From NCBI GenBank assembly GCA_964558865.1, contig CAZLGN010000001.1:1-38126 (forward strand): DNA of 38,126 nt, written 5' to 3'. This document shows, piece after piece, positions 7,968-26,704 of this stretch. Under the pieces are notes generated by a model that worked only from the letters and a program-made list of their open reading frames with translations, was not told the DNA's origin and made no database searches. Numbering within the stretch: position 1 is the stretch's first letter; each line of letters starts with the position of its first letter. The position numbers and the translations under genes are program-made. This stretch comes from an uncultured Methylomagnum sp. (GTDB lineage: Bacteria; Pseudomonadota; Gammaproteobacteria; Methylococcales; Methylomonadaceae).

Positions 7968-8006
7968 CAACCACAGAAAAATAACAAAATTATTTGGAAA
8001 AAAACA

Positions 8007-11743: not shown

Positions 11744-14700
11744 ATGCAAAATTCGCAAACACTTACCATCGATGGAAACCAAGCTGCCGCGATGGTGGCT
11801 TACAAACTCAACGAAGTTATTGCCATTTACCCCATAACTCCCGCGTCCACAATGGGCGAATGGGCGGACGAATGGGCTTCAAATAAACAGCTCAATTTGT
11901 GGGGAACCGTCCCGCAAGTCACCGAAATGCAAAGCGAGGCGGGCGCAGCGGGTGCAATTCACGGCGCATTGCAAGCGGGAACACTTGCTACGACATTCAC
12001 TGCCTCGCAAGGCTTGTTGTTAATGCTGCCGAATATGTACAAAATCGCGGGGGAATTAACGCCGACGGTTTTTCATATTGCCGCCCGTTCGCTTGCTTGT
12101 CAGGGTTTGTCTATTTTCGGCGACCACAGCGACGTAATGTCAGCTCGCATGACGGGATTTGGAATGTTATGCGCGAATTCGCCGCAAGAAGTGTTAGATT
12201 TCGCGCTAATCGCCCACGCTGTGACTTTAGAAAGTCGTATTCCGTTATTGCATTTTTTTGATGGTTTCAGAACTTCGCACGAAGTCGCCAAAATTCAAAC
12301 CTTCGACGATGACGTATTTCGCGCCATGATTCAAAACAATTGGATTACCGAGCATCGAAATCGGGCTTTAACGCCTAATAAGCCCGTTATGCGTGGTACC
12401 GCGCAAAATCCTGATGTTTATTTTCAAGCGCGTGAAACTGTAAATCTCTATTACGATGCAATGCCTACGATTGTGCAAAATGCAATGAATCGCTTTACAG
12501 AATTGACGGGGCGTGTTTATCGCTTATTTGAATATGAAGGCGCGGAAAATGCTAAACAAGTCATTATTATCATGGGTTCGGGTGCCGAAGCGGTTGCGGA
12601 AACGGTCGAGTATTTGAATCGAAAAGGCGAATCCGTTGGCGTTTTGAAAGTCCGTTTATATCGTCCTTTTGATGCGGAAAGTTTGCTCGCCGCGTTGCCT
12701 GAATCGTGCAAAAAAATTGCCGTTTTAGACCGAACCAAAGAGCCTGGCGCAGACGGCGAACCGCTTTACAAAGACGTTTTAACCGCGATTGCACAAAATT
12801 ATTTGAGTGGTGCGTCGAAATTTTCAGAATTACCTATCGTTGTCGGGGGACGTTACGGCTTGTCGTCGAAAGAATTTACGTCTGGAATGATTAAAGCGAT
12901 TTTCGAGGAATTGAAATCCGCACATCCAAAAAATCAGTTCACCATCGGCATCAACGATGACGTGACGCATAGCAGTTTGCCATGGGACGCAAGTTACCGC
13001 ACAGATTCACTTGCCGATACCTTTCAAGCAATGTTCTACGGTTTAGGCAGCGACGGCACGGTCGGTGCGAACAAAAACACCATCAAAATTATCGGCGAAG
13101 GAACCGATTTAAACGCGCAAGGTTATTTCGTCTACGATTCCAAAAAATCAGGCGCGGTCACCGTTTCGCATTTACGTTTTGGTTCGCAACCGATTCGCGC
13201 TACTTATTTGATTTCCGAAAATGACGCGAATTTTATCGGCTGTCATCAATCGGTTTTCCTTGAACGTTACGATATGTTGGCGAACGCGGCGGAAAATGCG
13301 GTGTTTTTGTTGAATTCGCCTGAACCGCTTGAAAAAGCGTGGGAATCGTTGCCAACCAAAATGCAGCAACAAATGTTTGCTAAAAAAATCCGTTTTTATG
13401 TCATCGATGGTTACGCGGTTGCTGAAAAAACGGGCATGGGCAGACATATCAACACCATTATGCAAACTTGTTTTTTTGCGATTTCAGGCGTGTTGCCGCA
13501 AGAACAAGCGATTACCGCGATTAAACACGCCGTCGAAAAAACCTACGGTAAAAAAGGGCAGCGTATGATTGAATTGAACATGCGAGCGATTGATGAAACG
13601 TTGGCGAATTTGCACATTGTGCCGTTGCAAAACGTCGTCGATTCGCAAATTGTGCTTAAATCTAATATCAACGATTCTGCGCCTGAATTTATTAAAAACG
13701 TCACGGGCGAAATTATCGCGGGGCGCGGCAATGCGTTACCCGTTAGCGCGATGCCGATTGATGGCACCTTTCCAACTGGCACAGCAGCTTATGAAAAACG
13801 AAATTTAGCTCTCGAAATTCCCGTTTGGGAAAGTGATTTGTGTACCCAATGTGGCAAATGCGTCATGGTTTGTCCGCACGCTGTCATTCGTAGCAAAATT
13901 TACCCGCTCGCTGAATTAAAAAATGCGCCAGAAACTTTCAAATACACGCCGATGCTAGGCAAAGATTTCCCCGACGGTTTAGCGATGAGTTATCAAGTTG
14001 CGCCTGAAGACTGCACTGGCTGTAATTTGTGTGTCGATATTTGTCCGATTCGAGACAAATCGAACGCTAGCCGCAAGGCTTTAAATATGCAGCTGCAACC
14101 GCCATTACGCGAAGTCGAACGCGAAAACTGGAATTTCTTTTTAACGATTCCCGAATATGACCGCCGTTTATTGAAAACGAACACGATTAAAGGTGCGATG
14201 GTGTTGCAGCCGTTGTTTGAATTTTCAGGCGCGTGTGCGGGTTGTGGCGAAACGCCTTATATTAAACTTGCGTCACAACTCTTTGGCGACCGAATGTTAG
14301 TCGCAAATGCAACAGGCTGTTCATCAATTTACAGCGGCAATTTACCCACAACACCGTGGACAAAAAATGCTGAAGGTCGTGGCGTGGCATGGAGTAATTC
14401 GCTGTTTGAAGATAATGCCGAATTCGGTTTAGGAATGCGCGTGGCGTTAGATAAGCAAACAGAACACGCTGAAGAATTACTCTTAGCGTTGCATGAACAA
14501 ATAGGCATTGAGTTAGTTGAAGATATTTTAAGAGCCGATCAATCCACAGAAGCGGGAATTTATGAACAACGTGAGCGAATTGTGGATTTAAAAGAGGAAT
14601 TGAAAACTATCGCTCATCCACTTGCCGCTCAACTGCTGGAATTAGCGGATTATTTATGCAAAAAAAGCGTGTGGATTATTGGCGGTGATGGTTGGGCGTA

Positions 14701-15376
14701 TGACATTGGTTATGGCGGTCTCGACCACGTTTTAGCGAGTGGGCGCAATGTGAACATTTTGGTTTTAGATACCGAAGTGTATTCCAACACAGGCGGACAA
14801 ACCTCAAAATCTACGCCGCGTGGTGCGGTGGCGAAATTTTCAGCAGGCGGCAAAGCCTCTGCGAAAAAAGATTTGGCATTACTCGCAATGGATTATCCCA
14901 ATGTTTATGTCGCACACGTTGCTTATGCGGGTAAAGATACCTAAACACTGAATGCGTTTTTAGAAGCCGAAGCTCATGAAGGCACGTCGATTATTATTGC
15001 TTACGCGCCTTGTATCGCGCACGGTGTGGATTTGTCCAACAATCATCGTCAACAAAATCTCGCGGTAAAAAGTGGGTATTGGTCGTTATTCCGTTTTGAC
15101 CCGAACAGACTTAAACAAGGCAAAAATCCGATGCGGCTTGATTCGCCTGAACCATCGATTTCTTATCGAGAATTTGTGCAAACCGAAACCCGTTTCAGTA
15201 TGTTGTGGCAAACGCATCCCGAAGCGGCAGAGGAATTTTTAGCACAGGCGCAGCAAGACGTAAAAAATCGCTATCACTTTTATAAACAACTTTCGGAATT
15301 AGAGTGGGACGATACAACGAGCGTTTCATCGTTCAAAGCACAAATCAAAACCGCAGTGGAGAAAGACAATGGTTGA
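11744..15376 (+). pseudogene. nifJ: Pyruvate:ferredoxin (flavodoxin) oxidoreductase (PFOR/NifJ type), interrupted by a single in-frame TAA at 14942-14944
   Basis: ORFs 11744..14944 and 15026..15376 are in the same frame, and the 81 nt between them contain no further stop. Read through, the translation is a continuous PFOR sequence (...AYAGKDT*TLNAFLEAEAHEGTSIIIAYAPCIAHGVDL...). Two ferredoxin-type CxxCxxCxxxCP clusters and the TPP-binding GGDGWAYDIG motif are present. If the stop is a sequencing error, this is an intact CDS of about 1210 codons. Confidence 0.9.
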
Positions 15377-16382
15377 TTTAACGACAAATTATTTGGGTTT
15401 GAAATTGGTAAATCCATTAGTGGCTTCTGCGTCGCCATTGACGAAAGCCTTAGATAGCGCGAAATGTTTGGAAGATGCTGGCGTGTCAGCATTGGTAATG
15501 CACTCGTTGTTTGAAGAAAAAATTGCATCGGAAGAACAACATAATGCGCGATTTTTTTATCAGCAATCGCTCGGACACGGTGAAGCGGATTCGTTTCACC
15601 CGCTGCACCACGATGTACAAACCTATCAAGACCGCTATTTAGAAAACCTGCAAAAACTCAAAGCAGGATTATCAATTCCGATTATTGCCAGTTTAAACGG
15701 CACGTCTTTGAGTGGCTGGGTTGATTACGGCAAACAATTAGAACAAGCAGGCGCGGATGCTCTCGAACTCAATGTTTATCACCTCGCGGCGAATGGCGAC
15801 GAAAGTGGAGAACAGGTTGAACAACGTTATTTGGACATTTTGCGCGAATTGAAAACGCGCGTTCAAATTCCGATTGCGATGAAAATTTCGGCGCAATTTA
15901 GTTCGCCGATTCATTTTGCCAAACGGCTGGAAGCGACTGGCGCGAATGGTTTGACGATTTTTAATCGTTTTTATCAGCCCGATATTGATTTAGAAACGTT
16001 GGAAGTTGTGCCGAAATTAGAACTTTCGACACCACAAGAAGCGTTGTTGCGAATTCGTTGGACGGCGTTGTTGTACGGGCGCACAAATTTATCGTTAGCC
16101 GTGACGGGCGGTTTTCATCAAACGCCCGATATTTTAAAAGCCTTGCTCGCGGGTGCAGATGTGGTGCAGCTTTGCAGTGTTTTATTGAAAGATGGCGTGG
16201 GACGGTTAAGCACAATTTTGACTGAACTCGAAACGTGGTTAGACGCACATGATTACGAATCGATTGAGCAGCTCAAAGGCAGCGTCAGCCAGCAAAACGC
16301 GATTGATCCAAGTGCGTATGAACGCGCCAATTATGTGCAGGTTTTAGATAATTATTCTGGCGCGTCTGGCGTGTTGCGGTGA
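15369..16382 (+). CDS. Dihydroorotate dehydrogenase-like TIM-barrel flavoprotein, probably not a true DHOD
   Basis: 337-aa ORF whose ATG overlaps the nifJ stop by 8 nt. DHOD-like N-terminus (LGLKLVNPLVASASPLT) and FMN-phosphate motif (VTGGFHQTPDILKALLAGADVVQLCS) are present. The position of the catalytic-base motif (ELN-SCPN or SSPN in true DHODs) reads ELNVYHLA. Confidence 0.8.
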   Translation: MVDLTTNYLGLKLVNPLVASASPLTKALDSAKCLEDAGVSALVMHSLFEEKIASEEQHNARFFYQQSLGHGEADSFHPLHHDVQTYQDRYLENLQKLKAGLSIPIIASLNGTSLSGWVDYGKQLEQAGADALELNVYHLAANGDESGEQVEQRYLDILRELKTRVQIPIAMKISAQFSSPIHFAKRLEATGANGLTIFNRFYQPDIDLETLEVVPKLELSTPQEALLRIRWTALLYGRTNLSLAVTGGFHQTPDILKALLAGADVVQLCSVLLKDGVGRLSTILTELETWLDAHDYESIEQLKGSVSQQNAIDPSAYERANYVQVLDNYSGASGVLR

Positions 16383-16387
16383 TTCCT

Positions 16388-18073
16388 ATGAATCAATTCG
16401 ATATTGGGTCAACAATGCGAAAACTACTTATTTTTATCGCTTTAGGCTGTCCCGTTTTATCTTGGGCAGAAGGCGGCGGAACAGAATCGATGGATAGACC
16501 GAGTATGCGTCCATTACCTGAATTTCCCGCCACCGAACCCAATCGCCCCGATTTCAAACTTCCTCCTGTTCCCGAAAATATCCCGCAACAAACTAGCGAA
16601 CAACGCCAATTTGATATAGTCCGAATCGAATTTGACGGTAATACGGTTCTTGACGAAAAATCGCTCCGTGAATCAGTGCAATCGTATGAACGACGTGGCG
16701 TTACCCTCAACGAATTAGAAGAGCTACGTTTAAAAATTACCCAACGTTATATCGACCAAGGTTATGTGAATTCGGGGGCGATTTTGACGGCGGATGCTTT
16801 TAACGATGGCGTTCTGCGTTTCAAAATGCAGGAAGGACATTTAGACGAAATCATTATTCACGGTCAAGAAGGGTTGCGCGAAAATTATATTGCAAATCGT
16901 CTGCGCGGAGATTCGGAACAACCATTGAATTTACAAACGTTACAAGACCGTTTTCAAATGCTTTTGACCGACCCGCTGATTAGTCGAATGAATGGGCGTA
17001 TTTTGCCCAGCAATTCACCCGCGCAAAGTATTCTCGATGTAGATGTGACTCGCGCTCAACCTTACCAACTCAGTTTGCTCGGTAATAACCAACGTCCGCC
17101 GTCTATCGGTGCTGAAGCCTTTGGCGTAAATGGTTGGGCGCGAAATTTGACGGGATTTGGTGATTTGCTCGATTTTACGTTTTATACCAGCGCGGGTTCC
17201 AATCGTTACACGGGCAGTTTTAGTGTTCCGATTACCGACCAAGACACGCAAGTTTTCTTTCGTTTTGACGAGGGCGATTCGTCGGTTCAAGAGCAACCGA
17301 TTCGCAAAATCAACGTCACCAGCCAAGTCCATAATTTAGAAGGCGGCATCAGTCATCCGCTAATCAACACCTCAAAACAACGTTTGAATTTTGGCACGTT
17401 GCTCGCCATTCGAGAAAACGAAACGTTTTTAGATGGCAAGCCATTTTCATTTGTCGCAGGCGATTCAACAGGTCATACGCAAGCGACCGTGTGGCGGGCT
17501 TTTCAAGATTATATGCAACGTTGGGAAAATCACGCGCTGTCGTTACGTTCGACCTTTAGCGTCGGACTCAATACACTCGGTGCCACACCCAAAAAGAGTA
17601 GTGAGTTTTTTGCCTGGTTAGGTCAGGCGCAATATGCCTATCGCGTGAATGAAGAAGGTTCGCAAGTGGTTTTGCGTGGCAACAGCCAATTAAGTAACGA
17701 TAAGTTATTGCCGTTGGAGCGCATTGCGATTGGCGGCATGGGAACAGTGCGCGGCTATCGAGAAAATCAATTAGTACGCGACGAAGGTTACAACGTTTCG
17801 GCAGAATACCGTTATCCTGTTTTAGGTGGCGCAACGTCTACCGATGCCCAAATTCATCTCAATCTAGTGCCATTTATGGATTATGGCAGCGCGTGGAATC
17901 AAGGCGAAACAGCGCAAAATTTGTTTTCAGTCGGCGCAGGATTGGAATTTGATTGGCAACGTTTTCACAGCGGGTTTTATTACGGTTACGCTTTGAACAA
18001 ACCAACCACCGAGCAACAAGGTGATTTACAAGATGCGGGGATTCATTTCAACGCCCGTTTAGACCTGTTTTAA
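16388..18073 (+). CDS. ShlB/FhaC/HecB-family two-partner-secretion outer-membrane transporter (TpsB)
   Basis: The tracked ORF starts at GTG 16379, a GTGA overlap with the upstream stop. ATG codons at 16388 and 16415 are alternative starts. It has a signal peptide (MRKLLIFIALGCPVLSWA) and a POTRA_2-like region (IEFDGNTVL...LRLKITQRYIDQGYVNSGA). The beta-barrel carries the conserved loop-6 VRGY motif and FMDYGSAW. Confidence 0.9.
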   Translation: MNQFDIGSTMRKLLIFIALGCPVLSWAEGGGTESMDRPSMRPLPEFPATEPNRPDFKLPPVPENIPQQTSEQRQFDIVRIEFDGNTVLDEKSLRESVQSYERRGVTLNELEELRLKITQRYIDQGYVNSGAILTADAFNDGVLRFKMQEGHLDEIIIHGQEGLRENYIANRLRGDSEQPLNLQTLQDRFQMLLTDPLISRMNGRILPSNSPAQSILDVDVTRAQPYQLSLLGNNQRPPSIGAEAFGVNGWARNLTGFGDLLDFTFYTSAGSNRYTGSFSVPITDQDTQVFFRFDEGDSSVQEQPIRKINVTSQVHNLEGGISHPLINTSKQRLNFGTLLAIRENETFLDGKPFSFVAGDSTGHTQATVWRAFQDYMQRWENHALSLRSTFSVGLNTLGATPKKSSEFFAWLGQAQYAYRVNEEGSQVVLRGNSQLSNDKLLPLERIAIGGMGTVRGYRENQLVRDEGYNVSAEYRYPVLGGATSTDAQIHLNLVPFMDYGSAWNQGETAQNLFSVGAGLEFDWQRFHSGFYYGYALNKPTTEQQGDLQDAGIHFNARLDLF

Positions 18074-18089
18074 CTTTTGGGAGTTTGAA

Positions 18090-20324
18090 ATGAATCAATT
18101 TCGTATCTTAATTATCGCAACGGGGTTCTGGGCGGGTGTTGTTCACAGCGCAGATTTTGAAGACCTTTATCTGCAAAGCAAAAATCGTTTAGCGCAAGAA
18201 CAATACGGTTTAGCGATAGAATCGCTGAACGATGCAAACCAACTCGCATCAACACCAGAACAACAAGCACAAACGTTGGGAACACTCGGTTTAACCTATT
18301 ACCGAATGCAACGTCGAGAACAAGCCGCAAAATTATTGCGTGAAGCGGTGGCGTTAAATGTCGGTGAAAACACGACCCGCGCTCGTTGGTTAGGCACGCT
18401 CGCCGATTTAGAGTTGGATAAAAAAAATCTCGACACAGCCCGTTCACTGTATGAACAAGCCTTACCGTTAGCGGAAAAGGATGGCGAATTGATGGCAAGT
18501 TTGCGCTTGGGCAAAGTGGCAACCTTACCGTTAGCTGAACAATTGGCAGAATTAAAAACGCTTAAAGATGATTTGGATACGCTTGAAAATCCTGAAACGA
18601 AAGCTCGTTTGCTGATCAATTTAGGCGAACAAGCCCACAAACTTGGCGCGATAGAACTGGCGTTTAACAGTTTTGAACAAGCGCGGCGCAGCGGTGAACA
18701 TCAACCGCGTTTGCAAGCCGAAGCAATGGGACAACTCGCACAATTGTATGAAGAGCAAACTCGTTTTGATGAAGCCTTGCGTTTGAATTCGCAAGCCATC
18801 GACGCGGCGAAAAAAGTGGATGCCCATGATTTGTTGTTGGAATTGGAATGGCGGCAAGGACGTTTGCAGCGGGCGTTACAACATTTGCCTGAAGCGACAG
18901 CCGCGTATCAACAAGCAATCGAACACATTGAAGCGATTCGCCAAGATATTCCCGTTGAATACCATAACGGGCGGTCTTCGTTTCGAGAATTGTTAGAACC
19001 TGTTTATTTGGGTTTGGCAGATTTGTTGTTGACGCAAGCCAGTCAAAAAAGTGGTAAAGCTAAAAATGACCTGTTGCGCCATGCACGAGCAACGGTGGAA
19101 CTGATTAAACAGTCTGAACTCGAAGATTTTTTAGGCGGACGTTGTGGCGTTCACAGCAACAAAAACGCGCTGTTGGAAGCGGTCGAACCCACTACTGCAA
19201 TTATTTACCCGATTCTGTTGCCTGATCGTTTGGAATTGTTAGTCAGTAGCGGCAATGAAATTCGCCAATACACGCAACCCATTGGCGCGGCAGAGATGCA
19301 AGATTTAACCAAGCATTTAGCACACAGCCTGCGAACCAATAAATATGATATTAAGGCGGCATCTGAAAAACTGTATCAACAACTGATTGCACCGATTGAA
19401 CCGTGGTTGCAGGAGCAAAATATCAAAACGTTGGTGATGGTTCCTGATGGAGTTTTACGATTGATTCCGCCAGCGGTTTTGTACAACGGTGAACATTATC
19501 TGATTGAAAATTACGCGGTGGCGACTTCGCCAGGTTTGACATTGTTTGAACCCGCGCCGTTGCAACAACGTGGGATTAAGGCATTGTTAGCAGGAATGAG
19601 TGAACCTGGTTCGGTGGTTGACCATTTGCCAGCTGCTTTTTTGCAAGCCTTGGCGGGAAATCGTGGTTTGAGTAATCCAGAAGATATGAGTGAAGCGGCA
19701 GTCAAAAGCCGACAACTTGAACTCGAACGGATGATAAAAGAGCCTGTTTTTCGTCAGCAACTCAAAGAAAAATTAAGTTTGCCAGGCGTTGCAGAAGAAA
19801 TTAAAAGTCTGCAAAAAGAAGTTTCCAATACATCGCTGATGAATGAAGGTTTTACGGTTGAGGGTTTCAAAAACCAAGCGATTCAAGAGCCTTATTCTGT
19901 GGTGCATATTGCTTCGCACGGTGTATTTGGTAAAACGGCGGCTGCCAGTTTTGTAATGGCGTTCGATGGCGTGATTGATATGGATGATTTAGAACGACTT
20001 TTAAAATCCGACAAATTCTCAAAACAACCAGTGGAATTATTAACGTTGAGTGCGTGTCAAACAGCTGAAGGCGATGATCGTGCGCCGTTGGGATTAAGCG
20101 GGATTGCGCTAAAATCCAAAGTGCGTAGCGTACTGGGAACGTTGTGGCCTGTTTCGGATGAAGCGGCATCGTTGTTAATGGCGGAATTTTACAAAGCTCT
20201 TTCGCAACCTGGAATCAGCAAAGTTCAAGCCTTGCGACAAGCGCAAATCGTATTACTCAAACAAAAAGACCTCGAAAATCCGTTTTATTGGTCGCCATTT
20301 ATTTTGGCGGGGAGTTGGTTATGA
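18090..20324 (+). CDS. Secreted TPR-repeat / CHAT-domain (caspase-like) peptidase
   Basis: 744-aa ORF with GGGAG upstream of the ATG. It has an N-terminal signal peptide (MNQFRILIIATGFWAGVVHS-AD) and about 330 aa of TPR-like helical repeats. The C-terminal CHAT domain has an intact His/Cys dyad: VVHIASHG (His codon at 19917-19919) and LLTLSACQTA (Cys codon at 20055-20057). The tail is the typical PFYWSPFILAG. Confidence 0.9.
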   Translation: MNQFRILIIATGFWAGVVHSADFEDLYLQSKNRLAQEQYGLAIESLNDANQLASTPEQQAQTLGTLGLTYYRMQRREQAAKLLREAVALNVGENTTRARWLGTLADLELDKKNLDTARSLYEQALPLAEKDGELMASLRLGKVATLPLAEQLAELKTLKDDLDTLENPETKARLLINLGEQAHKLGAIELAFNSFEQARRSGEHQPRLQAEAMGQLAQLYEEQTRFDEALRLNSQAIDAAKKVDAHDLLLELEWRQGRLQRALQHLPEATAAYQQAIEHIEAIRQDIPVEYHNGRSSFRELLEPVYLGLADLLLTQASQKSGKAKNDLLRHARATVELIKQSELEDFLGGRCGVHSNKNALLEAVEPTTAIIYPILLPDRLELLVSSGNEIRQYTQPIGAAEMQDLTKHLAHSLRTNKYDIKAASEKLYQQLIAPIEPWLQEQNIKTLVMVPDGVLRLIPPAVLYNGEHYLIENYAVATSPGLTLFEPAPLQQRGIKALLAGMSEPGSVVDHLPAAFLQALAGNRGLSNPEDMSEAAVKSRQLELERMIKEPVFRQQLKEKLSLPGVAEEIKSLQKEVSNTSLMNEGFTVEGFKNQAIQEPYSVVHIASHGVFGKTAAASFVMAFDGVIDMDDLERLLKSDKFSKQPVELLTLSACQTAEGDDRAPLGLSGIALKSKVRSVLGTLWPVSDEAASLLMAEFYKALSQPGISKVQALRQAQIVLLKQKDLENPFYWSPFILAGSWL

Positions 20325-22645
20325 ACACATTTAAATTTTTAGCCTTTGGTTTTGCGATTTCTACGCAATTTGCCTTCGCAGAAGGCATTGCCACCGACGG
20401 TACAATGGGCGCGGCGCAAACATTAAGCGGCGCAAACGTCACCATTCCGCAAACTCTCGGCACAACGGTGGGCAATAATTTGTTCCACAGTTTCGCCGAT
20501 TTCAATATCAACTCTGGTCAAACAACGACTTTCACAGGTGGCGATAATCTGCAAAACGTTATTTCTCGCGTCACGGGCGGTAACGCTTCAAACATCAACG
20601 GCGTTTTAAAATCTGAAATCAAAAACGCCGATTTTTACTTCATCAATCCCAACGGCATTACCTTTGGCACAAACTCTCAAGTCGATGTGCCTGCGGCGTT
20701 TCATGTCAGCACCGCCGATAAAATGGATTTTGATAAAAACGGCGGGGTGTTTTATGCCGATTTGAACAAAGACAGCAAACTCAGTAGCGATGCGCCTGCC
20801 GCTTTTGGCTTTTTGGGAACCTCGAAGGCGAATAATGGGTTGATTGATTTCGATAATTCCAAAATCATTTTGAAGCCTGAGAAAACGCTAGATGTCGTCG
20901 CAGGAGAAATCAAAGTTGAAAACAAATCAGCTATTACTGAACCAGCAGGAGAAGTGCGTTTAGTGGCTATGCAAGGTGAAGGAGTTGTGAGTTTGGAAAA
21001 AATTAACGATACATTATCGCTACCAAACACAACGCCAACAACCTCTAATGCAGGGAAAATATCGGTAAAAGACAGTGTTATCGATATGACTGGCGACGGT
21101 GGTGGTCGCTTCGCTCTTTGGGGAGGTGAAACTTCGCTCAAAGACAGCAATGTATTTGCAGATAATAATGGAGCTAAAGATGCTACTTCTGCGAAAGGCG
21201 TTGATATTTATGTTGATTCGCTAGAAATAGATAATGTGAATGTTAATTTCCTAGATGCAGACAAAGGTAGTATTTCAGTTGATGCCTTAAATGCTGGTAA
21301 AGCAGGGAATCTAGTGGCGAAAGTAACCAATTTTTTGAATATATCCAATGGTGGATACATAACGAATCGTGTTTGGCGTCAGGGTAATGGCGGTAATCTC
21401 ACCGTTGCAGTGGATACTCTGAAAATGGATAGTAAAGGTAATCATTCAGTTGGCGGGACAGGTATTTATTCAGGTGTAGAGGAAGGTAGTGGTCAAGCAG
21501 GCGATGTGAGTGTTAGCACACGGGTAATAAATCTTTTACACAGTGGAGTCATTTCAAGTTCAACATGGGCAGAAGGTAACGCTGGGAATGTAACTGTTAT
21601 AGCCTCCGATACTATAGTCATCGACGGTCAATCTGAAAATTTTTGGGGAACAGGTATTTTTACTGACGCACTTCCTGGCAGTAGCGGCAATGCGGGTAAA
21701 GTGTCCGTGAATACCAATAAACTTACCATCCTAAATGGTGGACAAATATCAAGTTCTACTCGAAGTCAAGGAAGTGCTGCTGGAAAAGTATCAGTTACTG
21801 CAAATAATTTGCAAATTGATGCTAAGTGGAATTCTTCCCAGCTAACAGGTATTTTTTCAAAGTCCCGTGGTACAGAATCAAGCGGTGTAACAGGTGATTT
21901 ATCCGTTACAGCGAATGACCAGCTACATATTAACGATGGTGGTGCTATTAGCATTTCAAATGAAGCGAATGATGTCACCAACTCCATCTCAATTAGCCCA
22001 GGCAAAATCATCGTCACCGCACCTAATATCGACATGAAAAACGGTAAAATCAGCGGTAATTCCGCTGGCAACGTTGCCGCAGGAAATATCGCCGTAAATT
22101 TTTCAAATCACCTAAATATGAATTCTTCGTTTATTACCACCACAGCCAATACAGGTAATGGAGGGGCTATAAAAATCAACGGTGGCGAATTGATTTACTT
22201 AAAAGATTCGGGAATCAAAACCACGGTCAGTGGCGAAAACGGCAACGGCGGTGATATTTCAGTCAATGCAGAAATGCTCGTGATGGACACAGGTTTAATT
22301 CAAGCCAATGCGAAAAGTGGCAATGGCGGCAACATTGATTTAGCGTTGCAAGCTCTTATTCCCAGTGCCGACAAGCTAATCAAAGGCGGTAAAACAGTTG
22401 ATTGGAACAGTTCGCCTTCAACAATAAACGTCATTCAAGCTGCTTCACAAACGGGCGTGAGTGGTACAGTCACAAACTCTGCACCACAACTTAATTTGAG
22501 CGGCGTGTTAGCAAATGTCGGCAATGCTAATTTTGATAACAGCCTCATCAGCCAAGATTATTGCGCTTTAGGTCAAGGTAGTTCGCTTGCTAAAAAAGGC
22601 AAAGGCGGTTTGCCGATAAGAGCGAAAGATTTGCAGGTGAAGTAA
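20321..22645 (+). CDS. Filamentous-haemagglutinin-N-terminal (TPS) domain exoprotein, a short TpsA-like beta-helix protein
   Basis: I prefer the ATG at 20321, which has GGGGAG 7 nt upstream and forms an ATGA overlap with the CHAT stop, over the tracked TTG at 20288.
- Signal peptide: MNTFKFLAFGFAISTQFAFA.
- TPS motifs: NLFHSFADFNI, ISRVTGGNASNINGVL, FYFINPNGITFG.
- Periodic repeats of the type GNGGNLTV, GNAGNVTV, GNAGKVSV and GNGGNIDL.
- The protein ends ...DYCALGQGSSLAKKGKGGLPIRAKDLQVK. Confidence 0.9.
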   Translation: MNTFKFLAFGFAISTQFAFAEGIATDGTMGAAQTLSGANVTIPQTLGTTVGNNLFHSFADFNINSGQTTTFTGGDNLQNVISRVTGGNASNINGVLKSEIKNADFYFINPNGITFGTNSQVDVPAAFHVSTADKMDFDKNGGVFYADLNKDSKLSSDAPAAFGFLGTSKANNGLIDFDNSKIILKPEKTLDVVAGEIKVENKSAITEPAGEVRLVAMQGEGVVSLEKINDTLSLPNTTPTTSNAGKISVKDSVIDMTGDGGGRFALWGGETSLKDSNVFADNNGAKDATSAKGVDIYVDSLEIDNVNVNFLDADKGSISVDALNAGKAGNLVAKVTNFLNISNGGYITNRVWRQGNGGNLTVAVDTLKMDSKGNHSVGGTGIYSGVEEGSGQAGDVSVSTRVINLLHSGVISSSTWAEGNAGNVTVIASDTIVIDGQSENFWGTGIFTDALPGSSGNAGKVSVNTNKLTILNGGQISSSTRSQGSAAGKVSVTANNLQIDAKWNSSQLTGIFSKSRGTESSGVTGDLSVTANDQLHINDGGAISISNEANDVTNSISISPGKIIVTAPNIDMKNGKISGNSAGNVAAGNIAVNFSNHLNMNSSFITTTANTGNGGAIKINGGELIYLKDSGIKTTVSGENGNGGDISVNAEMLVMDTGLIQANAKSGNGGNIDLALQALIPSADKLIKGGKTVDWNSSPSTINVIQAASQTGVSGTVTNSAPQLNLSGVLANVGNANFDNSLISQDYCALGQGSSLAKKGKGGLPIRAKDLQVK

Positions 22646-22647
22646 CA

Positions 22648-24543
22648 TTGCAAACGCCCTTCAAAAAATGGTTACTTCATTCTCATGTAAGTTGCTCTCT
22701 ATTAGGCTTGTTGTCTGCCGTTGTAATTATCGTTTTGCAATACATCGGCATTTTACAAGGTGCAGAATTACAAGCATTTGACCAATTTTTACTGAAACGT
22801 CCAACAATAGCGATTGATGACCGTATCGTGGTAATTGGTGAAACTGAACCCGATATTCGTCGTTTCGGACATCCACTTTCTGATCAAGTGTTAGCGGACG
22901 CACTGCAAATACTAGAAAAAAATAACGCGCGAGTCATTGGCGTAGATAAATACCGCGATGTTGCGGTAAAACCTGGCACAAAAGAACTCAAAAACGTATT
23001 GCAAAAATACAGCAACATTGTTTGGATTTTTTTCACGGGTAATTCAAAACAGGAATTTATTCCTGCGCCAGAAGTCATAGTAAATAACCCTGAAAGAACA
23101 GGTTTTAATGATCTCGTGGAAGATAGCGACGGTGTGGCGCGGCGGGGATTGTTATTTTTAGAAATGGATGGCGACAATTATTACGCTTTTCCTTTGTTAC
23201 TGGCTTTGCATTATTTGGCGGGTGAAAACATCGCGGCTGGCAGCGATGAACAAGGAAATTTAAACCTCAATGGTGTGAGTTTGCCACCAATAGATTCAAA
23301 ATTTGGAGCCTATAACGCCGTAGATACGGGCGGCTATCAAATCATGCTCGATTATCCAGGGCTGCCGCAATCATTCAGTTTTTTCACCTTGTCTGATTTA
23401 TTCGATGGCAAAATTAAAAACAACGCGCTCAAAGATAAAATTGTCCTCATCGGTGGAATGGCACCTAGTTTGAGTGATTACCGCTTGTTGCCGAATGAAA
23501 TGAAACGTTTTGGCGTTGAGCATCACGCTTATTTTGTTAGCCAATTATTAAACACAGCACTTGAAAAAAAATCGCCCTTACGCGCTTGGTCAAATAATGT
23601 TGAATATGGTTGGTTATTATTGTGGTGTTTAATCGGTGCATTGACAGGATTTTGCAGAAAGCAACTGCTGCAACTATGCACATTGATAATAGCTGAGATT
23701 TTACTGTTACAAGGTTTAAACATTATTTTACTCAATGAAAATTTGTGGACACCTTTAGTCGCACCATTACTGGGCTGGGGAAGTGCGTTAGCGTTGAGTA
23801 TTTTATATTTTTCCAGTCAAGAACGTGCTGAACGTCGCCAATTGATGCAATTATTTGCGAGCCACGTTTCGCCCGAAGTGGCTAAACGATTGTGGGACGC
23901 ACGAGAACAATTTTTTACAGAAGGCGGTGTTAAACCTGATACTTTAACTGCCACAGTGTTATTTACAGACATCACAAACTTCACCACGCTTGCAGAAAAA
24001 ATGGAGCCGCTGATTTTAATGAAATGGCTAAATGAATATATGGGCGAAATGAGCAACATCGTCACGCATCATAATGGCATGGTGAACAAATATATTGGTG
24101 ATGCGATTATGGCGATTTTTGGTGTACCCGTAAAACGTGAAACAGAAACAGAAATTGCTACCGACGCGCAACATGCCGTTAAATGCGCCATTGAATTTAA
24201 TCGGCGGTTGCGTGAACTTAATCAAAAATGGCAAACACAAGGGCTTCCTGAAATTACTATGCGAGTCGGTATTTACACGGGGTCATTAGTGGCAGGTAGT
24301 TTTGGTGGTGCAGTACGAATGGAGTACACTGTCATTGGCGATACAGTTAATGCTGCCTCACGTTTAGAAAGTTTCGATAAAACAACGGCAGAACCTGATA
24401 ATCAGCATCCGTGCCGCATTTTGATTGGAGAAACGACTTATCACTGCATCTCGTCTCTTTACGAAACCAAAATGGTCGGTGAGTACAAACTAAAAGGCAG
24501 AAATGAATACTCAAAAATTTATCAAGTTATTGTTTCACGATGA
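22648..24543 (+). CDS. CHASE2-sensor class III adenylate/guanylate cyclase, with a probable class IIIb adenylate cyclase signature
   Basis: The TTG start lies 2 nt after the TpsA stop, with AGGTGA 7 nt upstream. The layout is TM1, a periplasmic region of about 280 aa beginning with the CHASE2-typical LQGAELQAFDQFLLKRP, three transmembrane helices, then the cyclase homology domain (VLFTDITNFT, NKYIGDAIMAIFG, YTVIGDTVNAASRLES). Confidence 0.9.
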   Translation: MQTPFKKWLLHSHVSCSLLGLLSAVVIIVLQYIGILQGAELQAFDQFLLKRPTIAIDDRIVVIGETEPDIRRFGHPLSDQVLADALQILEKNNARVIGVDKYRDVAVKPGTKELKNVLQKYSNIVWIFFTGNSKQEFIPAPEVIVNNPERTGFNDLVEDSDGVARRGLLFLEMDGDNYYAFPLLLALHYLAGENIAAGSDEQGNLNLNGVSLPPIDSKFGAYNAVDTGGYQIMLDYPGLPQSFSFFTLSDLFDGKIKNNALKDKIVLIGGMAPSLSDYRLLPNEMKRFGVEHHAYFVSQLLNTALEKKSPLRAWSNNVEYGWLLLWCLIGALTGFCRKQLLQLCTLIIAEILLLQGLNIILLNENLWTPLVAPLLGWGSALALSILYFSSQERAERRQLMQLFASHVSPEVAKRLWDAREQFFTEGGVKPDTLTATVLFTDITNFTTLAEKMEPLILMKWLNEYMGEMSNIVTHHNGMVNKYIGDAIMAIFGVPVKRETETEIATDAQHAVKCAIEFNRRLRELNQKWQTQGLPEITMRVGIYTGSLVAGSFGGAVRMEYTVIGDTVNAASRLESFDKTTAEPDNQHPCRILIGETTYHCISSLYETKMVGEYKLKGRNEYSKIYQVIVSR

Positions 24544-24582
24544 AAAATTGAGTTCAATCCAACCGCTATTTGGAGTCACGTT

Positions 24583-25167
24583 ATGAACAAAAAACTTGTC
24601 TTGCTCGTTATTTTTATTTCATTGTTACCTTCATTCACAAATGCTGACGGCTTACTAACATACAAGCCGCCGCAAATGACAACTTTACAAGGTCGCATTG
24701 GAGGTGGCACGCGCAGTTTGAATTTAGCCACACCAAAAATTCAACTATTAGCACCCAAGCACATTGCGTTAACAAGTCAAACACAACCAATTTTGTATTG
24801 GTATTCATCAGAACCCAATCAACAAAAAGTAGAATTTATTTTAATTGAAGAAGGGGCAGATGAACCTTTATTAGAAGAAAGTTTGTCGATGACCACTGTT
24901 GGCATAAACCGCATCCGTTTAAAAGATTACAACGTGTCGTTGCAAGCGGGTAAAAAATATAAATGGTCTATCAATAATTCTGCACAAAGTTTAGAAGATG
25001 CCAGTGCAACGTTGATTTATCAATTCCCTACTGTCTCGTTATCTACTATCGAACAAAAAGCAGAAAACGGTTACTGGTACGATACGCTACAGCAACTCAT
25101 TGAAAGTCATTCGCCACTTGCCAATGATTTACTCAAACAAATTGGCATAGAAATACCCCCGCTTTAA
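24583..25167 (+). CDS. Secreted DUF928-family protein
   Basis: 194-aa ORF with GGAG upstream of the ATG and a signal peptide (LLVIFISLLPSFTNA). Family-like motifs recalled from DUF928 are YKPPQ...GRIGGGTRS, PILYWY, KVEFILIEE, LQAGKKYKW and NGYWYDTLQQL. Confidence 0.8.
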   Translation: MNKKLVLLVIFISLLPSFTNADGLLTYKPPQMTTLQGRIGGGTRSLNLATPKIQLLAPKHIALTSQTQPILYWYSSEPNQQKVEFILIEEGADEPLLEESLSMTTVGINRIRLKDYNVSLQAGKKYKWSINNSAQSLEDASATLIYQFPTVSLSTIEQKAENGYWYDTLQQLIESHSPLANDLLKQIGIEIPPL

Positions 25168-25180
25168 ATTCGTACTGATT

Positions 25181-26704
25181 ATGTTTTGTCTGGTTCAATC
25201 ACTGCTAAAAGACACCGTTTATCCACATTCGGTAAGCGAAATTGAATTGATTGAAACCCACATTTCGTGGATTTTTTTGACGGGCAATTTTGCTTATAAA
25301 ATCAAAAAGCCCGTTCAATTCGATTTTTTAGACTTTTCGACGTTAGAAAAGCGGCATTTTTACTGTGAAGAAGAATTGCGATTAAATCGCCGTTTTGCGC
25401 CGAATCTTTATTTGCAAGTCGTTCCAATCACAGGAACGGTGGAACATCCACAAATTGACGGCAGCAGTGAAACGATAGAATATGCCGTTAAAATGCAGCA
25501 ATTCCCCGCAGGTCAACTTCTGAGTGAAATGGCGAATTGCGGGGATTTGAACACAGAAATTATTGACCAACTCGCTGACCTCACCGCTGATTTTCATCAT
25601 CGCGCCACTTCTGATATTTCCCGCAGTCATTACGGAACAGCCGCCGAAATTCATCATTGGTTTTCAGGCAACTTCGCACCAATTCGTCCATTTTTTGATG
25701 TGGCGCAATTAGAAGTGTGGGGCGAGAAGGAATTGTTAAAAAATACGCTGTTAATTGAACAGCGCAAACAGCACGGTTTCATTCGAGAATGTCACGGTGA
25801 TTTGCATTTGGGAAATATCGTGTGGTTTGAAAATCGCGTTACGCCGTTTGATGGCATCGAATTCAATCCCGCTTTGCGTTGGATTGACGTAATGAATGAA
25901 GTTGCGTTTGCGGTGATGGATTTAGAACAACGCAATTTTAAACCGTTTGCCTATCGATTTTTGAACCGTTATTTAAGTCAAACGGGCGATTATTCAGGCT
26001 TGAGTTTGCTGCATTATTATTGCGTTTATCGGGCGTTGGTTCGCGCCAAAATTGCCTTATTGCGCTGGCAACAACATCGAAACCAGTTGGATTTTGTTGA
26101 CGCTGAAAGTTATCTCAAATTAGCAGAACGTTTCACTACACAAAAATCGCCGTTATTGATTATTACGCATGGTTTTTCGGGTTCAGGAAAATCCACCGTC
26201 AGCGCACAATTGGCAGAAAATTTAGGTTTGATTCATTTGCGTTCGGATGTTGAACGGCAACGGTTATTTGAGAAATCGGAGCAAAACATTTACAGTTCAA
26301 AACACACCCAACAAACATATCAAACGCTCGCCGATTTTGCCGCCACAATTCTCCATGCAGGGTTTTCAGTGTTGGTTGATGCGACGTTTCTTAAATTAGA
26401 CCAACGCGCTTTATTTCAAAAATTGGCAGCTAATCAAAACGTAGAATTTTTTATTTTAGATTTTCAGGCAACAAAGGAGGAATTAAGTCGTCGCATTCTT
26501 CAACGGCAACAACTCGGCAATGATTTTTCGGAAGCGACGTTAGCCGTATTGCAACAACAAATTAAATCTGCACAATCCCTGATTTCGACTGAACAACATA
26601 AAACGATTCAAATCGAAAACGTGGCAGATGCGTTAAAAAAATTACTTCATCATCTCCAAGGAGAACACCATGACACAACCAGTAAATTATATTCGTTGGT
26701 TTAA
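25181..26704 (+). CDS. Fused aminoglycoside-phosphotransferase-like kinase and P-loop (AAA/gluconate-kinase-like) ATP-binding protein
   Basis: 507-aa ORF. The N-terminal domain has IETHISWIFLTGNFAYKIKKPV and the protein-kinase-like catalytic loop CHGDLHLGNI. The C-terminal domain has the Walker A motif ITHGFSGSGKST. Its 3' end overlaps the ppsA start by 35 nt. Confidence 0.8.
   Translation: MFCLVQSLLKDTVYPHSVSEIELIETHISWIFLTGNFAYKIKKPVQFDFLDFSTLEKRHFYCEEELRLNRRFAPNLYLQVVPITGTVEHPQIDGSSETIEYAVKMQQFPAGQLLSEMANCGDLNTEIIDQLADLTADFHHRATSDISRSHYGTAAEIHHWFSGNFAPIRPFFDVAQLEVWGEKELLKNTLLIEQRKQHGFIRECHGDLHLGNIVWFENRVTPFDGIEFNPALRWIDVMNEVAFAVMDLEQRNFKPFAYRFLNRYLSQTGDYSGLSLLHYYCVYRALVRAKIALLRWQQHRNQLDFVDAESYLKLAERFTTQKSPLLIITHGFSGSGKSTVSAQLAENLGLIHLRSDVERQRLFEKSEQNIYSSKHTQQTYQTLADFAATILHAGFSVLVDATFLKLDQRALFQKLAANQNVEFFILDFQATKEELSRRILQRQQLGNDFSEATLAVLQQQIKSAQSLISTEQHKTIQIENVADALKKLLHHLQGEHHDTTSKLYSLV

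What the first reader, a model, noticed from the sequence alone, without database searches (positions are those of the whole stretch)
18090..20324. Caspase-like CHAT protease predicted to be periplasmic and wedged between TpsB and TpsA
Seen: there is a cleavable-looking signal peptide (…AGVVHS|ADF). The catalytic His (ASHG, 19917-19919) and Cys (SACQ, 20055-20057) are both retained. The stop overlaps the TpsA start (ATGA), implying stoichiometric co-expression with its neighbour. Established: CHAT domains belong to the caspase/peptidase C14-like fold and are usually cytoplasmic effectors, as in HetF and CRISPR-associated CHAT. Inference: this is a dedicated periplasmic maturation or release protease for the adjacent exoprotein or for DUF928. 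Candidate basic/Gly-rich sites are KKGKGGLPIRAK in TpsA and GRIGGGTRS in DUF928.
Basis: partly seen in the sequence, partly recalled or inferred. Interest (0 to 1): 0.7.

Follow-up and report, generated by a model that had tools for sequence, protein, structure and literature searches.

The report
Secretion system with built-in caspase-like protease
The gene encodes a caspase-like (TPR-CHAT) protease that is exported from the cytoplasm and is the fixed third partner of a widespread, undescribed class of two-partner secretion systems, most likely acting on a conserved tail of the secreted protein.

Summary

It is not a chance neighbour.
- Loci chosen by the CHAT protein almost always carry TpsB and TpsA beside it. 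They come from Methylococcales, Burkholderiales, Nitrosomonas and Desulfobacterales.
- Metagenome loci chosen only by the TpsA C-terminal tail always carry the CHAT gene when enough flank is present (45 loci, no informative exception).
- Cyanobacterial plasmids carry the same set; one Pseudanabaena plasmid has all five genes: TpsB, CHASE2 sensor, TpsA, CHAT, DUF928.
- At least 28 protein clusters are natural TpsA-TPR-CHAT fusions. The two looked up sit directly behind a TpsB gene.

The partner TpsAs share an unmodelled tail of about 85 residues.

Best reading, at about 0.55: a periplasmic protease or stopper that binds and cleaves the TpsA anchor tail, controlling tethering or release. In roughly a quarter to a third of loci it is coupled to a CHASE2 sensor and DUF928. 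Cleavage itself is untested.

I found no paper describing this system. I rate it a new variant of a known kind.

The parts
16379..18073 (+). TpsB outer-membrane transporter (ShlB/FhaC type). The likely real start is the ATG at 16415, giving the leader MRKLLIFIALGCPVLSWA.
   Evidence: Pfam ShlB E=7.5e-26 and POTRA_2 E=7.3e-18. Leader. Start position.
18090..20324 (+). TPR-CHAT protein, 744 aa: the finding itself.
   Evidence: AF2 model pLDDT 86.1. Foldseek best hits are Csx29 (8eey_B, E=1.6e-13), DdvA and separase.
18090..18149 (+). Predicted Sec signal peptide, residues 1-20, with cleavage after VHS.
   Evidence: Heuristic. The leader is kept as a feature, not as a sequence, across homologs.
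18156..19130 (+). All-helical TPR scaffold, residues about 23-347.
   Evidence: TPR Pfam hits. AF2 helices 23-347 at pLDDT above 90.
19116..19145 (+). Linker motif ELEDFLGGRC with the invariant non-catalytic Cys352 (codon 19143-19145).
   Evidence: Invariant in 98 of 98 homologs. Present with both TpsA tail types and in fused proteins. Function unexplained.
19356..20315 (+). CHAT (caspase-fold) domain, residues 423-742. Catalytic His610 at 19917-19919 and Cys656 at 20055-20057.
   Evidence: Pfam, codons, invariance. E660, D662 and D663 after the Cys are nearly invariant.
20321..20324 (+). ATGA overlap of the TpsA start codon with the CHAT stop codon.
20321..22645 (+). TpsA exoprotein, 774 aa. 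Leader residues 1-20; TPS domain residues 23-262 (20387-21106), with NPNG at 20645-20656; then beta-helix repeats.
   Evidence: Pfam TPS E=4.1e-32. TIGR01901 E=1.6e-18..
22373..22642 (+). Family-specific C-terminal tail module of TpsA. NVIQAAS at 22427-22447. DYCALGQGSSL at 22556-22588, holding the protein's only Cys, C748 (22562-22564). KKGKGGLPIRAK at 22592-22627.
   Evidence: Conserved across proteobacterial and cyanobacterial partners. Kept at the junction of fused proteins. No Pfam model. Profile search found 1124 clusters at E<=1e-10, with the match at or near the C-terminus in the top 150.
22648..24543 (+). Membrane sensor: periplasmic CHASE2 (residues 24-332), TM helices, and a cytoplasmic class III adenylate/guanylate cyclase (residues 434-621).
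   Evidence: Pfam CHASE2 E=4.9e-52 and Guanylate_cyc E=4.9e-28. TM-like segments. A CHASE2 gene lies next to the trio in 24 of 80 CHAT-selected loci.
24583..25167 (+). DUF928 protein with a signal peptide. N-terminal motif YKPP...GRIGGGTRS at 24661-24717.
   Evidence: Pfam DUF928 E=7.8e-16. Leader. Motif conservation. Present in 18 of 80 loci.

Best explanation
The ORF encodes a Sec-exported, periplasmic TPR-CHAT (caspase-fold) cysteine protease. It is the obligate third component of a distinct, widespread class of type Vb (two-partner) secretion systems.

Proposed mechanism:
1. The cognate TpsA is threaded N-terminus first through TpsB.
2. Its family-specific C-terminal module, about 85 residues with an invariant Cys followed by SS(L/F)-x3-G-x-G-G-(L)-P, is the last part to arrive. 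As in HMW1 and HxuA, it acts as a periplasmic anchor.
3. The TPR scaffold of the CHAT protein binds this tail.
4. The His610/Cys656 dyad cuts within or next to it. This decides whether the beta-helix stays tethered to the cell or is released.
5. Where a CHASE2 sensor and DUF928 are co-encoded, as here with a cyclase output, the event is coupled to cyclic-nucleotide signalling.

Shown: domain identities, conservation of the dyad, the export signal, the two-way synteny, the fusions, and the conserved tail.

Inferred: binding, cleavage, the cleavage site, the consequence (release versus maturation), and the link to CHASE2.
For: 1. Identity and active site. CHAT E=4.7e-54. His610 and Cys656 are invariant in 98 of 98 homologs. 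The full-length fold matches Csx29, DdvA and separase.

2. Location. A leader is present in 92 of 114 homologs against negative controls, and the mature part has no TM segment. In fused proteins the TPR-CHAT part has no leader of its own and follows a TpsA that begins with a hydrophobic leader and a TPS domain.

3. Synteny from the CHAT side. The genome scan found at least 578 related loci. Of the 80 kept, 61 contain all three genes; BCA, CAB and ABC are the commonest orders and all share the cyclic order B-C-A.

4. Synteny from the TpsA side. Among loci chosen only by the tail peptide NVIQAAAP, 45 of 80 carry CHAT. The other 35 all have their TpsA gene cut by, or within 1.7 kb of, the contig end. 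There is no informative counter-example.

5. Cross-phylum conservation. Cyanobacterial plasmids carry the same set. Pseudanabaena ABRG53f has TpsB-CHASE2-TpsA-CHAT-DUF928, and N. punctiforme pNPUN03 has TpsA-CHAT with CHASE2 and DUF928 nearby.

6. Rosetta-stone fusions. TPS + TPR + CHAT occur in one polypeptide in 28 of the top 120 clusters. The join falls just after the tail module, and the two fusions looked up are directly preceded by a TpsB gene.

7. The tail is family-specific and C-terminal. It has one Cys (short tails) or a Cys pair bracketing the motif (long tails).

8. Precedents. The HMW1/HxuA C-terminal disulfide anchor stays in the periplasm, and LapG cleaves the periplasmic tail of CdrA (PMC5422565). 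DdvA has a periplasmic TPR-CHAT (PMC11506125).
Against: - No biochemical evidence of proteolysis exists.
- No residue in the tail looks like an invariant P1. The position before GG is K or R in most sequences, but also A, Y, S or N.
- Six CHAT-selected loci lack an adjacent TpsA within the flank held. L003 has CHAT alone; L002, L007, L042, L045 and L072 have TpsB-CHAT only. The partner can therefore be encoded elsewhere, or CHAT can work without it.
- The signal-peptide call rests on a home-made heuristic.
- The catalytic loop 658-667 has low confidence in the AF2 model, so dyad geometry was not checked.
- A thiol protease in the oxidising periplasm needs its Cys kept reduced. This is possible (LapG) but unproven here.
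Confidence: 0.55

Rival explanations
1. The TPR-CHAT is a cargo or effector of the secretion system rather than its processing enzyme. It would be delivered to the cell surface or outside, as the C-terminal domain of TpsA in fused forms, and would cleave foreign or environmental targets, like the C-terminal caspase-like toxin domains of polymorphic toxins.
For: Fused proteins place TPR-CHAT where CdiA-type TpsAs carry their toxin. Zhang et al. describe caspase-like domains as C-terminal toxins or releasing peptidases in polymorphic toxins (PMC3482391).
Against: - The CHAT part is not polymorphic. It is one conserved orthologous family, 40-90% identical within proteobacteria and 30-35% to cyanobacteria.
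- No immunity-like gene is consistently present.
- Split CHAT proteins have a Sec leader but no TPS domain, so TpsB has no known way to export them.
- That paper lists no caspase among T5SS-delivered toxins.
Confidence: 0.12
2. The protease belongs mainly to a signalling pathway. It would cleave DUF928 or the periplasmic CHASE2 domain, or generate a peptide ligand, so as to switch the CHASE2 cyclase or kinase. TpsA would serve as the surface sensor rather than the substrate.
For: - The five-gene set recurs in Methylococcales and cyanobacteria.
- The CHASE2 domain is constant while its output varies: cyclase, His kinase, or none.
- DUF928 has a conserved Gly-rich N-terminal motif.
- In S. meliloti, CHASE2 cyclases respond to a proteinaceous signal via an outer-membrane barrel protein (PMC13001267, PMC7529298).
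Against: CHASE2 is next to the trio in only 24 of 80 loci and DUF928 in 18 of 80, whereas TpsA and TpsB are nearly universal. The fusions join CHAT to TpsA, not to CHASE2 or DUF928.
Confidence: 0.12
3. The CHAT domain acts as a sortase-like transpeptidase. It would cut the short C-terminal sorting tail of TpsA and link the new C-terminus to an envelope component. Other clan CD enzymes do this (GPI transamidase; PorU in type IX secretion).
For: The conserved motif is followed by a short, variable tail of 11-15 residues at the extreme C-terminus, an arrangement typical of sorting signals. That clan CD includes transpeptidases is my own knowledge, not tested here.
Against: Long-tail and fused variants have 40 to 900 residues after the motif. 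No acceptor or lipid-related gene is conserved in the neighbourhood. There is no direct evidence.
Confidence: 0.08
4. The protein is a non-catalytic periplasmic chaperone or plug. It would hold the TpsA tail through the TPR domain or through a Cys352-Cys748 disulfide, without proteolysis mattering.
For: There is a large TPR scaffold. The non-catalytic Cys352 is invariant, and the only Cys of the window TpsA lies in the tail.
Against: The catalytic His and Cys and the surrounding motifs are invariant across phyla. That is not expected for a purely structural role. Cys352 shows no covariation with TpsA tail type.
Confidence: 0.06
5. It is a cytoplasmic defence-type or HetF-type CHAT effector that merely happens to lie between the TPS genes.
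For: Most characterised CHAT proteins are cytoplasmic. There is a weak PADLOC hit to BovA, E=1.9e-5.
Against: - The leader peptide is conserved.
- Synteny holds from both directions, and fusions exist.
- The NCBIfam Csx29 model scores 17.7 bits against a cut-off of 300.
- No cas or defence genes lie in the window.
Confidence: 0.02

Closest known systems
LapG acting on CdrA (P. aeruginosa CdrAB two-partner system)
   Same: [quoted passage not shown] The event is tied to nucleotide second-messenger signalling (PMC5422565).
   Different: - LapG is an unrelated fold, not CHAT.
- It is not encoded with cdrAB.
- It is controlled inside-out by the c-di-GMP receptor LapD.
- Here the protease is co-encoded or even fused. 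The tail motif differs, and the linked signalling protein is a CHASE2 sensor with an output domain (cyclase or kinase), which suggests outside-in flow.
HMW1 / HxuA C-terminal anchor domain
   Same: The TpsA C-terminus stays in the periplasm. A disulfide-bonded loop locks it in the TpsB pore (PMC5422565). Long-tail relatives here have a Cys pair bracketing the conserved motif within the last ~50-70 residues.
   Different: The window TpsA and all short-tail members have a single Cys, so no intramolecular loop is possible. The motif is different. HMW1 and HxuA have no dedicated protease partner.
FhaB prodomain with the SphB1 maturation protease (Bordetella)
   Same: A C-terminal part of the TpsA precursor is retained inside and removed by proteolysis, which controls release of the mature exoprotein (PMC5422565). 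The fused TpsA-TPR-CHAT proteins resemble a TpsA with a large retained C-terminal domain.
   Different: The FhaB prodomain is not a protease. SphB1 is a subtilisin-type autotransporter encoded outside the fhaB-fhaC locus. Here the protease is a caspase-fold enzyme, either encoded in the operon or forming the C-terminal domain itself.
DdvA (Myxococcus xanthus transmembrane anti-sigma factor)
   Same: [quoted passage not shown] Self-cleavage has been proposed for it (PMC11506125). It is a Foldseek hit (8rw5 and 8rot, E about 2e-10).
   Different: DdvA has a cytoplasmic zinc anti-sigma domain and a TM helix, and it regulates a defence island. The window protein is a soluble secreted TPR-CHAT with only a leader peptide, and it belongs to a secretion operon.
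Csx29 (Craspase TPR-CHAT) and separase
   Same: Same overall TPR-CHAT architecture; these are the best structural matches (8eey_B, E=1.6e-13, TM 0.48). Both are substrate-specific proteases gated by a partner.
   Different: Both are cytoplasmic or nuclear. One is RNA/Cas7-11-activated and the other securin-regulated. The Csx29 NCBIfam model is far below its cut-off, and no CRISPR genes are present.
S. meliloti CHASE2 cyclases CyaD1/CyaD2/CyaK with NsrA
   Same: A CHASE2 class III cyclase receives a proteinaceous signal and depends on an outer-membrane beta-barrel protein. FecR+TPR and barrel ORFs lie directly upstream of cyaK.
   Different: The accessory proteins are of FecR/TPR/TonB-like barrel type, not TpsB/TpsA/CHAT/DUF928. 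No protease is known in that pathway.

Membership tests
CHAT domain (Pfam PF12770, caspase-fold clan CD) | Match to the family profile above the curated cut-off | tested here: met
   E=4.7e-54, 184.2 bits against a cut-off of 24, covering profile positions 2-289 of 289.
CHAT domain (Pfam PF12770, caspase-fold clan CD) | Catalytic His-Cys dyad retained | tested here: met
   His610 (ASHG) and Cys656 (SACQ) are present and invariant in 98 of 98 homologs. They are also kept in the cyanobacterial and fused relatives read.
CHAT domain (Pfam PF12770, caspase-fold clan CD) | TPR-CHAT fold comparable to solved members | tested here: met
   AF2 model pLDDT 86.1, pTM 0.81. Foldseek full-length hits to Csx29 (E=1.6e-13), DdvA and separase. 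Dyad geometry was not checked, because loop 658-667 has low confidence.
CHAT domain (Pfam PF12770, caspase-fold clan CD) | Peptidase activity | not testable with these tools
   Needs an enzyme assay.
Two-partner (type Vb) secretion system | TpsB: Omp85-type barrel with ShlB-type POTRA domains | tested here: met
   ShlB E=7.5e-26, POTRA_2 E=7.3e-18, Omp85 E=1.8e-11.
Two-partner (type Vb) secretion system | TpsA: Sec leader plus an N-terminal TPS domain with an NPNG motif | tested here: met
   TPS E=4.1e-32. TIGR01901 E=1.6e-18. NPNG at residues 109-112. Leader.
Two-partner (type Vb) secretion system | TpsB-dependent export of TpsA | not testable with these tools
   Needs genetics and fractionation.
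LapG/LapD-type periplasmic release system | Protease of the LapG family and a LapD-like c-di-GMP receptor | tested here: not met
   The protease is CHAT and matches no LapG-type family. None of the five cassette proteins has GGDEF, EAL or LapD-like domains. It may work like LapG-CdrA but is not a member.
Type III-E CRISPR Craspase (Csx29) | Match to the Csx29 model and presence of Cas7-11 and Csx30 neighbours | tested here: not met
   NF041237 scores 17.7 bits against a cut-off of 300. The window genes scanned are TPS, sensor and housekeeping genes. There are no PADLOC system hits.
DdvA-like TPR-CHAT anti-sigma factors | N-terminal cytoplasmic zinc anti-sigma domain plus a TM helix before the TPR-CHAT | tested here: not met
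   Only a 20-residue leader precedes the TPR region, and there is no TM segment after residue 45.
HMW1/HxuA-type C-terminal disulfide anchor | Two Cys near the TpsA C-terminus forming a loop | tested here: not met
   The window TpsA has a single Cys, C748. The feature is met in long-tail relatives, which have a Cys pair within the last ~50-70 residues.
TPS-associated TPR-CHAT system (proposed here) | TpsA ends with the module NVIQAA...PQLNLSG...D-x-C-x5-SS(L/F)-x3-G-x-GG-L-P, and a TPR-CHAT gene with a leader lies adjacent | tested here: met
   Window residues 685-774 align with 14 partners. CHAT overlaps the TpsA start. The association holds in both directions.

The most novel reading that the evidence does not exclude
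The TpsA-tail/CHAT pair is the missing input device of CHASE2 sensors. In this reading, the TpsA beta-helix on the cell surface reports contact or load. The periplasmic CHAT protease then clips the anchor tail or DUF928. The resulting Gly-rich peptide, or the emptied complex, is what the periplasmic CHASE2 domain detects, turning a secretion or surface event into cAMP/cGMP or phosphorelay output. A related variant is that CHAT acts as a sortase-like transpeptidase on the tail.
Probability: 0.15. Interest if true: 0.9.

Novelty: new variant of a known kind. Interest (0 to 1): 0.72.

Why it matters
Two-partner secretion is taught as a two-protein pathway with occasional unlinked helpers. This would be a large, cross-phylum class: over a thousand tail-bearing protein clusters, found in cyanobacteria, methanotrophs, nitrifiers, Burkholderiales and sulfate reducers. 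In it, a caspase-fold protease is a fixed, co-encoded or fused third part, paired with a matching sorting or anchor tail on the exoprotein.

Three things follow if it holds:
- A defined natural substrate candidate for a bacterial CHAT protease outside CRISPR and cell-cycle contexts.
- A testable model for how exoproteins of environmental bacteria are tethered and released.
- A concrete lead for the signal sensed by CHASE2 domains, for which the only functional data I found are the S. meliloti cyclases that respond to a proteinaceous signal.

The natural fusions also provide ready-made constructs for testing cleavage in cis.

Tried and rejected
- **Protein search with the TpsA tail alone.** Searching the big protein database with the last 120 residues returned only 7 short fragments and cost one of three searches.
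- **Metagenome scan, first attempt.** A 15-sequence tail alignment was too diverse for the scan. It worked after narrowing to 8 sequences.
- **Co-folding by chimera.** I tried to co-fold CHAT with the TpsA tail as a linker chimera.
- **First AF2 model.** With 14 sequences the CHAT domain was poor, pLDDT 73.7, and Foldseek was dominated by TPR proteins. I replaced it with a 98-sequence model.
- **Covariation test.** I asked whether CHAT Cys352 is kept only when the TpsA tail has a single Cys. It does not: Cys352 is kept with both tail types. The intermolecular disulfide idea therefore stays unsupported.
- **Promoter/terminator scan of 14800-26900.** Counts were at or below shuffle expectation, so the operon structure rests on gene spacing only.
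- **PDB sequence search with the family profile.** Only TPR hits came back.
- **PADLOC.** No defence-system assignment.
- **Literature.** I found no paper on CHAT with DUF928, CHAT with two-partner secretion, the NCBI product names in combination, or the GRGGLP motif.
- **NsrA as a TpsB.** I considered and rejected that the S. meliloti partner of the CHASE2 cyclases is a TpsB. The ORFs upstream of cyaK are FecR+TPR and a TonB-receptor-like barrel.
Full report
**1. The observation**

The ORF at 18090-20324 on the + strand encodes 744 residues.
- Pfam gives CHAT at E=4.7e-54 (residues 423-742) and several TPR families over the N-terminal third.
- Codon 19917-19919 is His610 in IASHG. Codon 20055-20057 is Cys656 in LSACQ.
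- The stop TGA overlaps the ATG of the next gene, as TTATGA at 20321-20324.
- The N-terminus MNQFRILIIATGFWAGVVHS|ADF has the n-, h- and c-regions of a Sec signal peptide.

I scored the leader with a simple rule combining hydrophobicity and the -3/-1 positions. The window protein scores like the leaders of the TpsB, TpsA and DUF928 proteins of the window, and above the cytoplasmic enzymes of the window. Of 114 full-length homologs, 92 pass the rule. The mature chain has no TM-like segment. SignalP was not available, so this is a heuristic.

All lie on one strand with gaps of -4 to 39 nt.

**2. Is the position between TpsB and TpsA meaningful?**

Homologs of the CHAT protein are abundant: 822 hits, the closest from Methylococcales, all named only 'CHAT domain-containing protein'. 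A scan of one genome per species with two peptide patterns around the catalytic Cys (E/Q-L/M-LTLSACQ and TAEGDDRAP) found at least 578 related loci.

I kept 80 of them, from Methylococcales, Undibacterium, Rubrivivax, Aquabacterium, Nitrosomonas, Rhodocyclaceae and Desulfobacterales. I searched their ORFs with the window proteins.
- 61 loci contain TpsB, CHAT and TpsA together. BCA, CAB and ABC are the commonest orders and share the cyclic order B-C-A.
- Most of the rest are truncated contigs.
- Six are real exceptions within the flank held. L003 has CHAT alone between NapC and PNPase genes. L002, L007, L042, L045 and L072 have TpsB-CHAT without an adjacent TpsA.

**3. The reverse test**

The TpsA partners share a C-terminal module of about 85 residues that no Pfam model covers:

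...GG...(W/F)...G.NVIQAA(A/S)P.G.SG......P.L(N/D)LSG.L..L.......D......D.C..G.(G)SS(L/F)...G.GG(L)P...

I scanned metagenome contigs with only the peptide NVIQAAAP from this tail.
- Of the 80 loci kept, 45 carry the TPR-CHAT gene next to the TpsA.
- In all 35 others, the TpsA gene runs into the contig end or has at most 1.7 kb upstream.
- So there is no informative counter-example.

The association holds whichever partner is used for selection.

A profile of the tail, which also covers the last beta-helix repeats, finds 1124 protein clusters (50% identity) at E<=1e-10. In the top 150, the match always ends at or within about 50 residues of the C-terminus.

**4. Other phyla and fusions**

A tblastn of the CHAT protein against plasmids hits 77 records, nearly all cyanobacterial, at 30-35% identity over residues ~207-744.
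- Pseudanabaena sp. ABRG5-3 plasmid ABRG53f carries TpsB, CHASE2 (with a histidine-kinase output), TpsA, CHAT and DUF928 in a row. These are the same five genes as the window.
- N. punctiforme pNPUN03 has TpsA-CHAT with CHASE2 and DUF928 nearby. Its TpsA ends with the same module...ACTPGTRQFQNTFVATGRSGLP..., then a long tail ending in a second Cys.
- Acaryochloris marina pREC3 encodes a 1756-residue protein with a TPS domain (24-229), beta-helix, tail module (...ADACAVPRSGQSQFIVTGRGGLP...), about 60 linker residues, then TPR and CHAT (1486-1754).

Such TPS+TPR+CHAT fusions make up 28 of the top 120 clusters found with that protein, down to about 28% identity. All six further fusions I read keep a Cys-containing tail segment at the junction, degenerate in the most divergent ones. 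All keep the CHAT linker motif. Two of the more divergent fusions, which lie among housekeeping genes, are directly preceded by a TpsB gene.

These fusions are strong Rosetta-stone evidence that the TpsA tail and the TPR-CHAT work together. They also show that the TPR-CHAT is exported: the fused version has no leader of its own and relies on that of the TpsA.

**5. Structure**

With a 98-sequence alignment, AF2 gives pLDDT 86.1 and pTM 0.81. The model has an all-helical TPR scaffold (residues 23-347), a flexible linker, and an alpha/beta CHAT domain.

Foldseek against the PDB returns full-length matches to Csx29 of Craspase (E=1.6e-13), to the anti-sigma factor DdvA, and to separase. The loop after the catalytic Cys (658-667) has low confidence, so I did not examine dyad geometry.

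Sequence models for Csx29 fall far below cut-off. The PADLOC scan gave only a weak single-protein hit to BovA and cyclase-domain (PycC) matches, and no defence-system assignment.

**6. Details of the tail**

The window TpsA has one Cys in 774 residues: C748, 27 residues from the end and inside the module.

Across 96 partner TpsAs there are two types:
- Short tails, with 11-15 residues after G-x-GG. The tail holds a single Cys about 26-30 residues from the C-terminus, and in 40 of the 96 TpsAs it is the only Cys in the mature protein.
- Long tails, with 38-52 residues after the motif. A second Cys sits 2-5 residues from the C-terminus, so the pair brackets the motif.

The TPS review records that the C-terminus of HMW1 and HxuA stays in the periplasm. 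There, a disulfide loop locks it in the TpsB pore. The same review records that LapG cleaves the periplasmic tail of CdrA to release it (PMC5422565). The long-tail variants fit that anchor picture directly.

The CHAT protein itself has exactly two Cys in 74 of 98 homologs: the catalytic one, and Cys352 in a conserved E(L/M)xD(F/Y)LxxxC linker motif. Cys352 is invariant and is kept with both tail types. It is also kept in the fusions. I cannot decide whether it pairs with the tail Cys, latches the catalytic Cys, or does something else.

**7. CHASE2 and DUF928**

Iterated profiles find a CHASE2 gene beside the trio in 24 of 80 CHAT-selected loci and DUF928 in 18 of 80.
- CHASE2 comes with a cyclase, with a histidine kinase, or alone. 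The periplasmic domain is therefore the constant feature.

These two genes are an optional signalling add-on, not the core.

The only functional data on CHASE2 cyclases I found are from S. meliloti. There they respond to a proteinaceous signal and need the outer-membrane protein NsrA (PMC13001267, PMC7529298). Upstream of cyaK I found FecR+TPR and barrel ORFs, not a TpsB.

**8. Interpretation**

The best-supported model is that the TPR-CHAT protein is a periplasmic component dedicated to the TpsA tail. It would bind the tail through the TPR scaffold and cut in or near the conserved motif, so setting whether the exoprotein stays anchored or is released. Where CHASE2 and DUF928 are present, this would be coupled to signalling.

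The identity, export, partnership and tail are shown. The cleavage, its site and its consequence are inferred. The rival readings are set out with their evidence in the Rival explanations section of this report:
- an exported effector;
- a signalling protease for DUF928 or CHASE2;
- a sortase-like transpeptidase;
- a non-catalytic plug.

A cytoplasmic, coincidental CHAT is effectively excluded.

**9. Novelty**

None of my literature searches found a paper linking CHAT with two-partner secretion, with DUF928, or with the tail motif. The 2017 TPS review lists only SphB1 and LapG as named TpsA-processing proteases, and notes that others are unidentified. Periplasmic TPR-CHAT has one characterised precedent, DdvA.

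I therefore rate this a new variant of a known kind: a three-component, or fused, type Vb secretion system with a built-in caspase-fold protease. The library I searched lacks most subscription journals, so an existing description cannot be fully excluded.

Noticed in passing
window 26670-27446 and 27465-29084: A PEP synthase/PPDK-like gene is split into two ORFs. The PPDK_N profile covers positions 2-231 in the first and 242-314 in the second. This is a frameshift, an in-frame stop or a sequencing error.
   Followed up: no
window 11744-14944 and 15026-15376: The 1066-aa pyruvate:ferredoxin oxidoreductase-like ORF is followed by a 116-aa ORF that reads like the missing PFOR C-terminus. That judgement is from the sequence and my own knowledge. 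It is probably another interrupted gene.
   Followed up: no
window 10448-11599 (-): A 383-aa protein with an N-terminal CPHC thioredoxin-like motif followed by several hydrophobic segments. It has no Pfam hit at 1e-5.
   Followed up: no
window 19116-19145 (CHAT residues 343-352): The linker motif ELEDFLGGRC carries a non-catalytic Cys352 that is invariant in 98 of 98 homologs, with both TpsA tail types, and in all fused proteins read. Its role is unexplained. It could form a disulfide to the TpsA tail Cys or act as a redox latch on Cys656.
   Followed up: partly
P0225, P0243: Proteins of about 1950 aa carry TPS, POTRA_2 and ShlB Pfam domains in one chain. These are apparent TpsA-TpsB fusions.
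   Followed up: no
L165:1326-3491 and 3950-4876 (S. meliloti pSymB, upstream of cyaK): ORFs absent from the PLSDB gene table, encoding FecR+TPR and a TonB-receptor-like beta-barrel, lie directly upstream of the CHASE2 cyclase CyaK. This is another case of a CHASE2 sensor next to TPR and outer-membrane barrel proteins.
   Followed up: partly
L001, L005, L008, L016, L046, L144: Two or three tandem TpsA genes, each with the tail module, lie in the same locus as a single CHAT gene.
   Followed up: no
L094:3622-4743 and L117: A cyclase + PilZ protein without CHASE2 sits next to the TpsA-TpsB-CHAT genes. CHASE2-only proteins with no output domain occur in L009, L049 and L063.
   Followed up: partly
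L161 (Nostoc sp. PCC 7120 plasmid alpha): Here the CHAT gene lies near a TpsA gene but is separated from it by a peptidase-domain ABC transporter, a HlyD adaptor, a PPIase and a PPC-domain protein. This may be a type I secretion link.
   Followed up: no
window 4215-9206: A large hybrid histidine kinase (GAF-PAS-HisKA-HATPase-REC-Hpt, 1250 aa) and a REC-HisKA-HATPase protein lie upstream. No link to the TPS cassette was examined.
   Followed up: no
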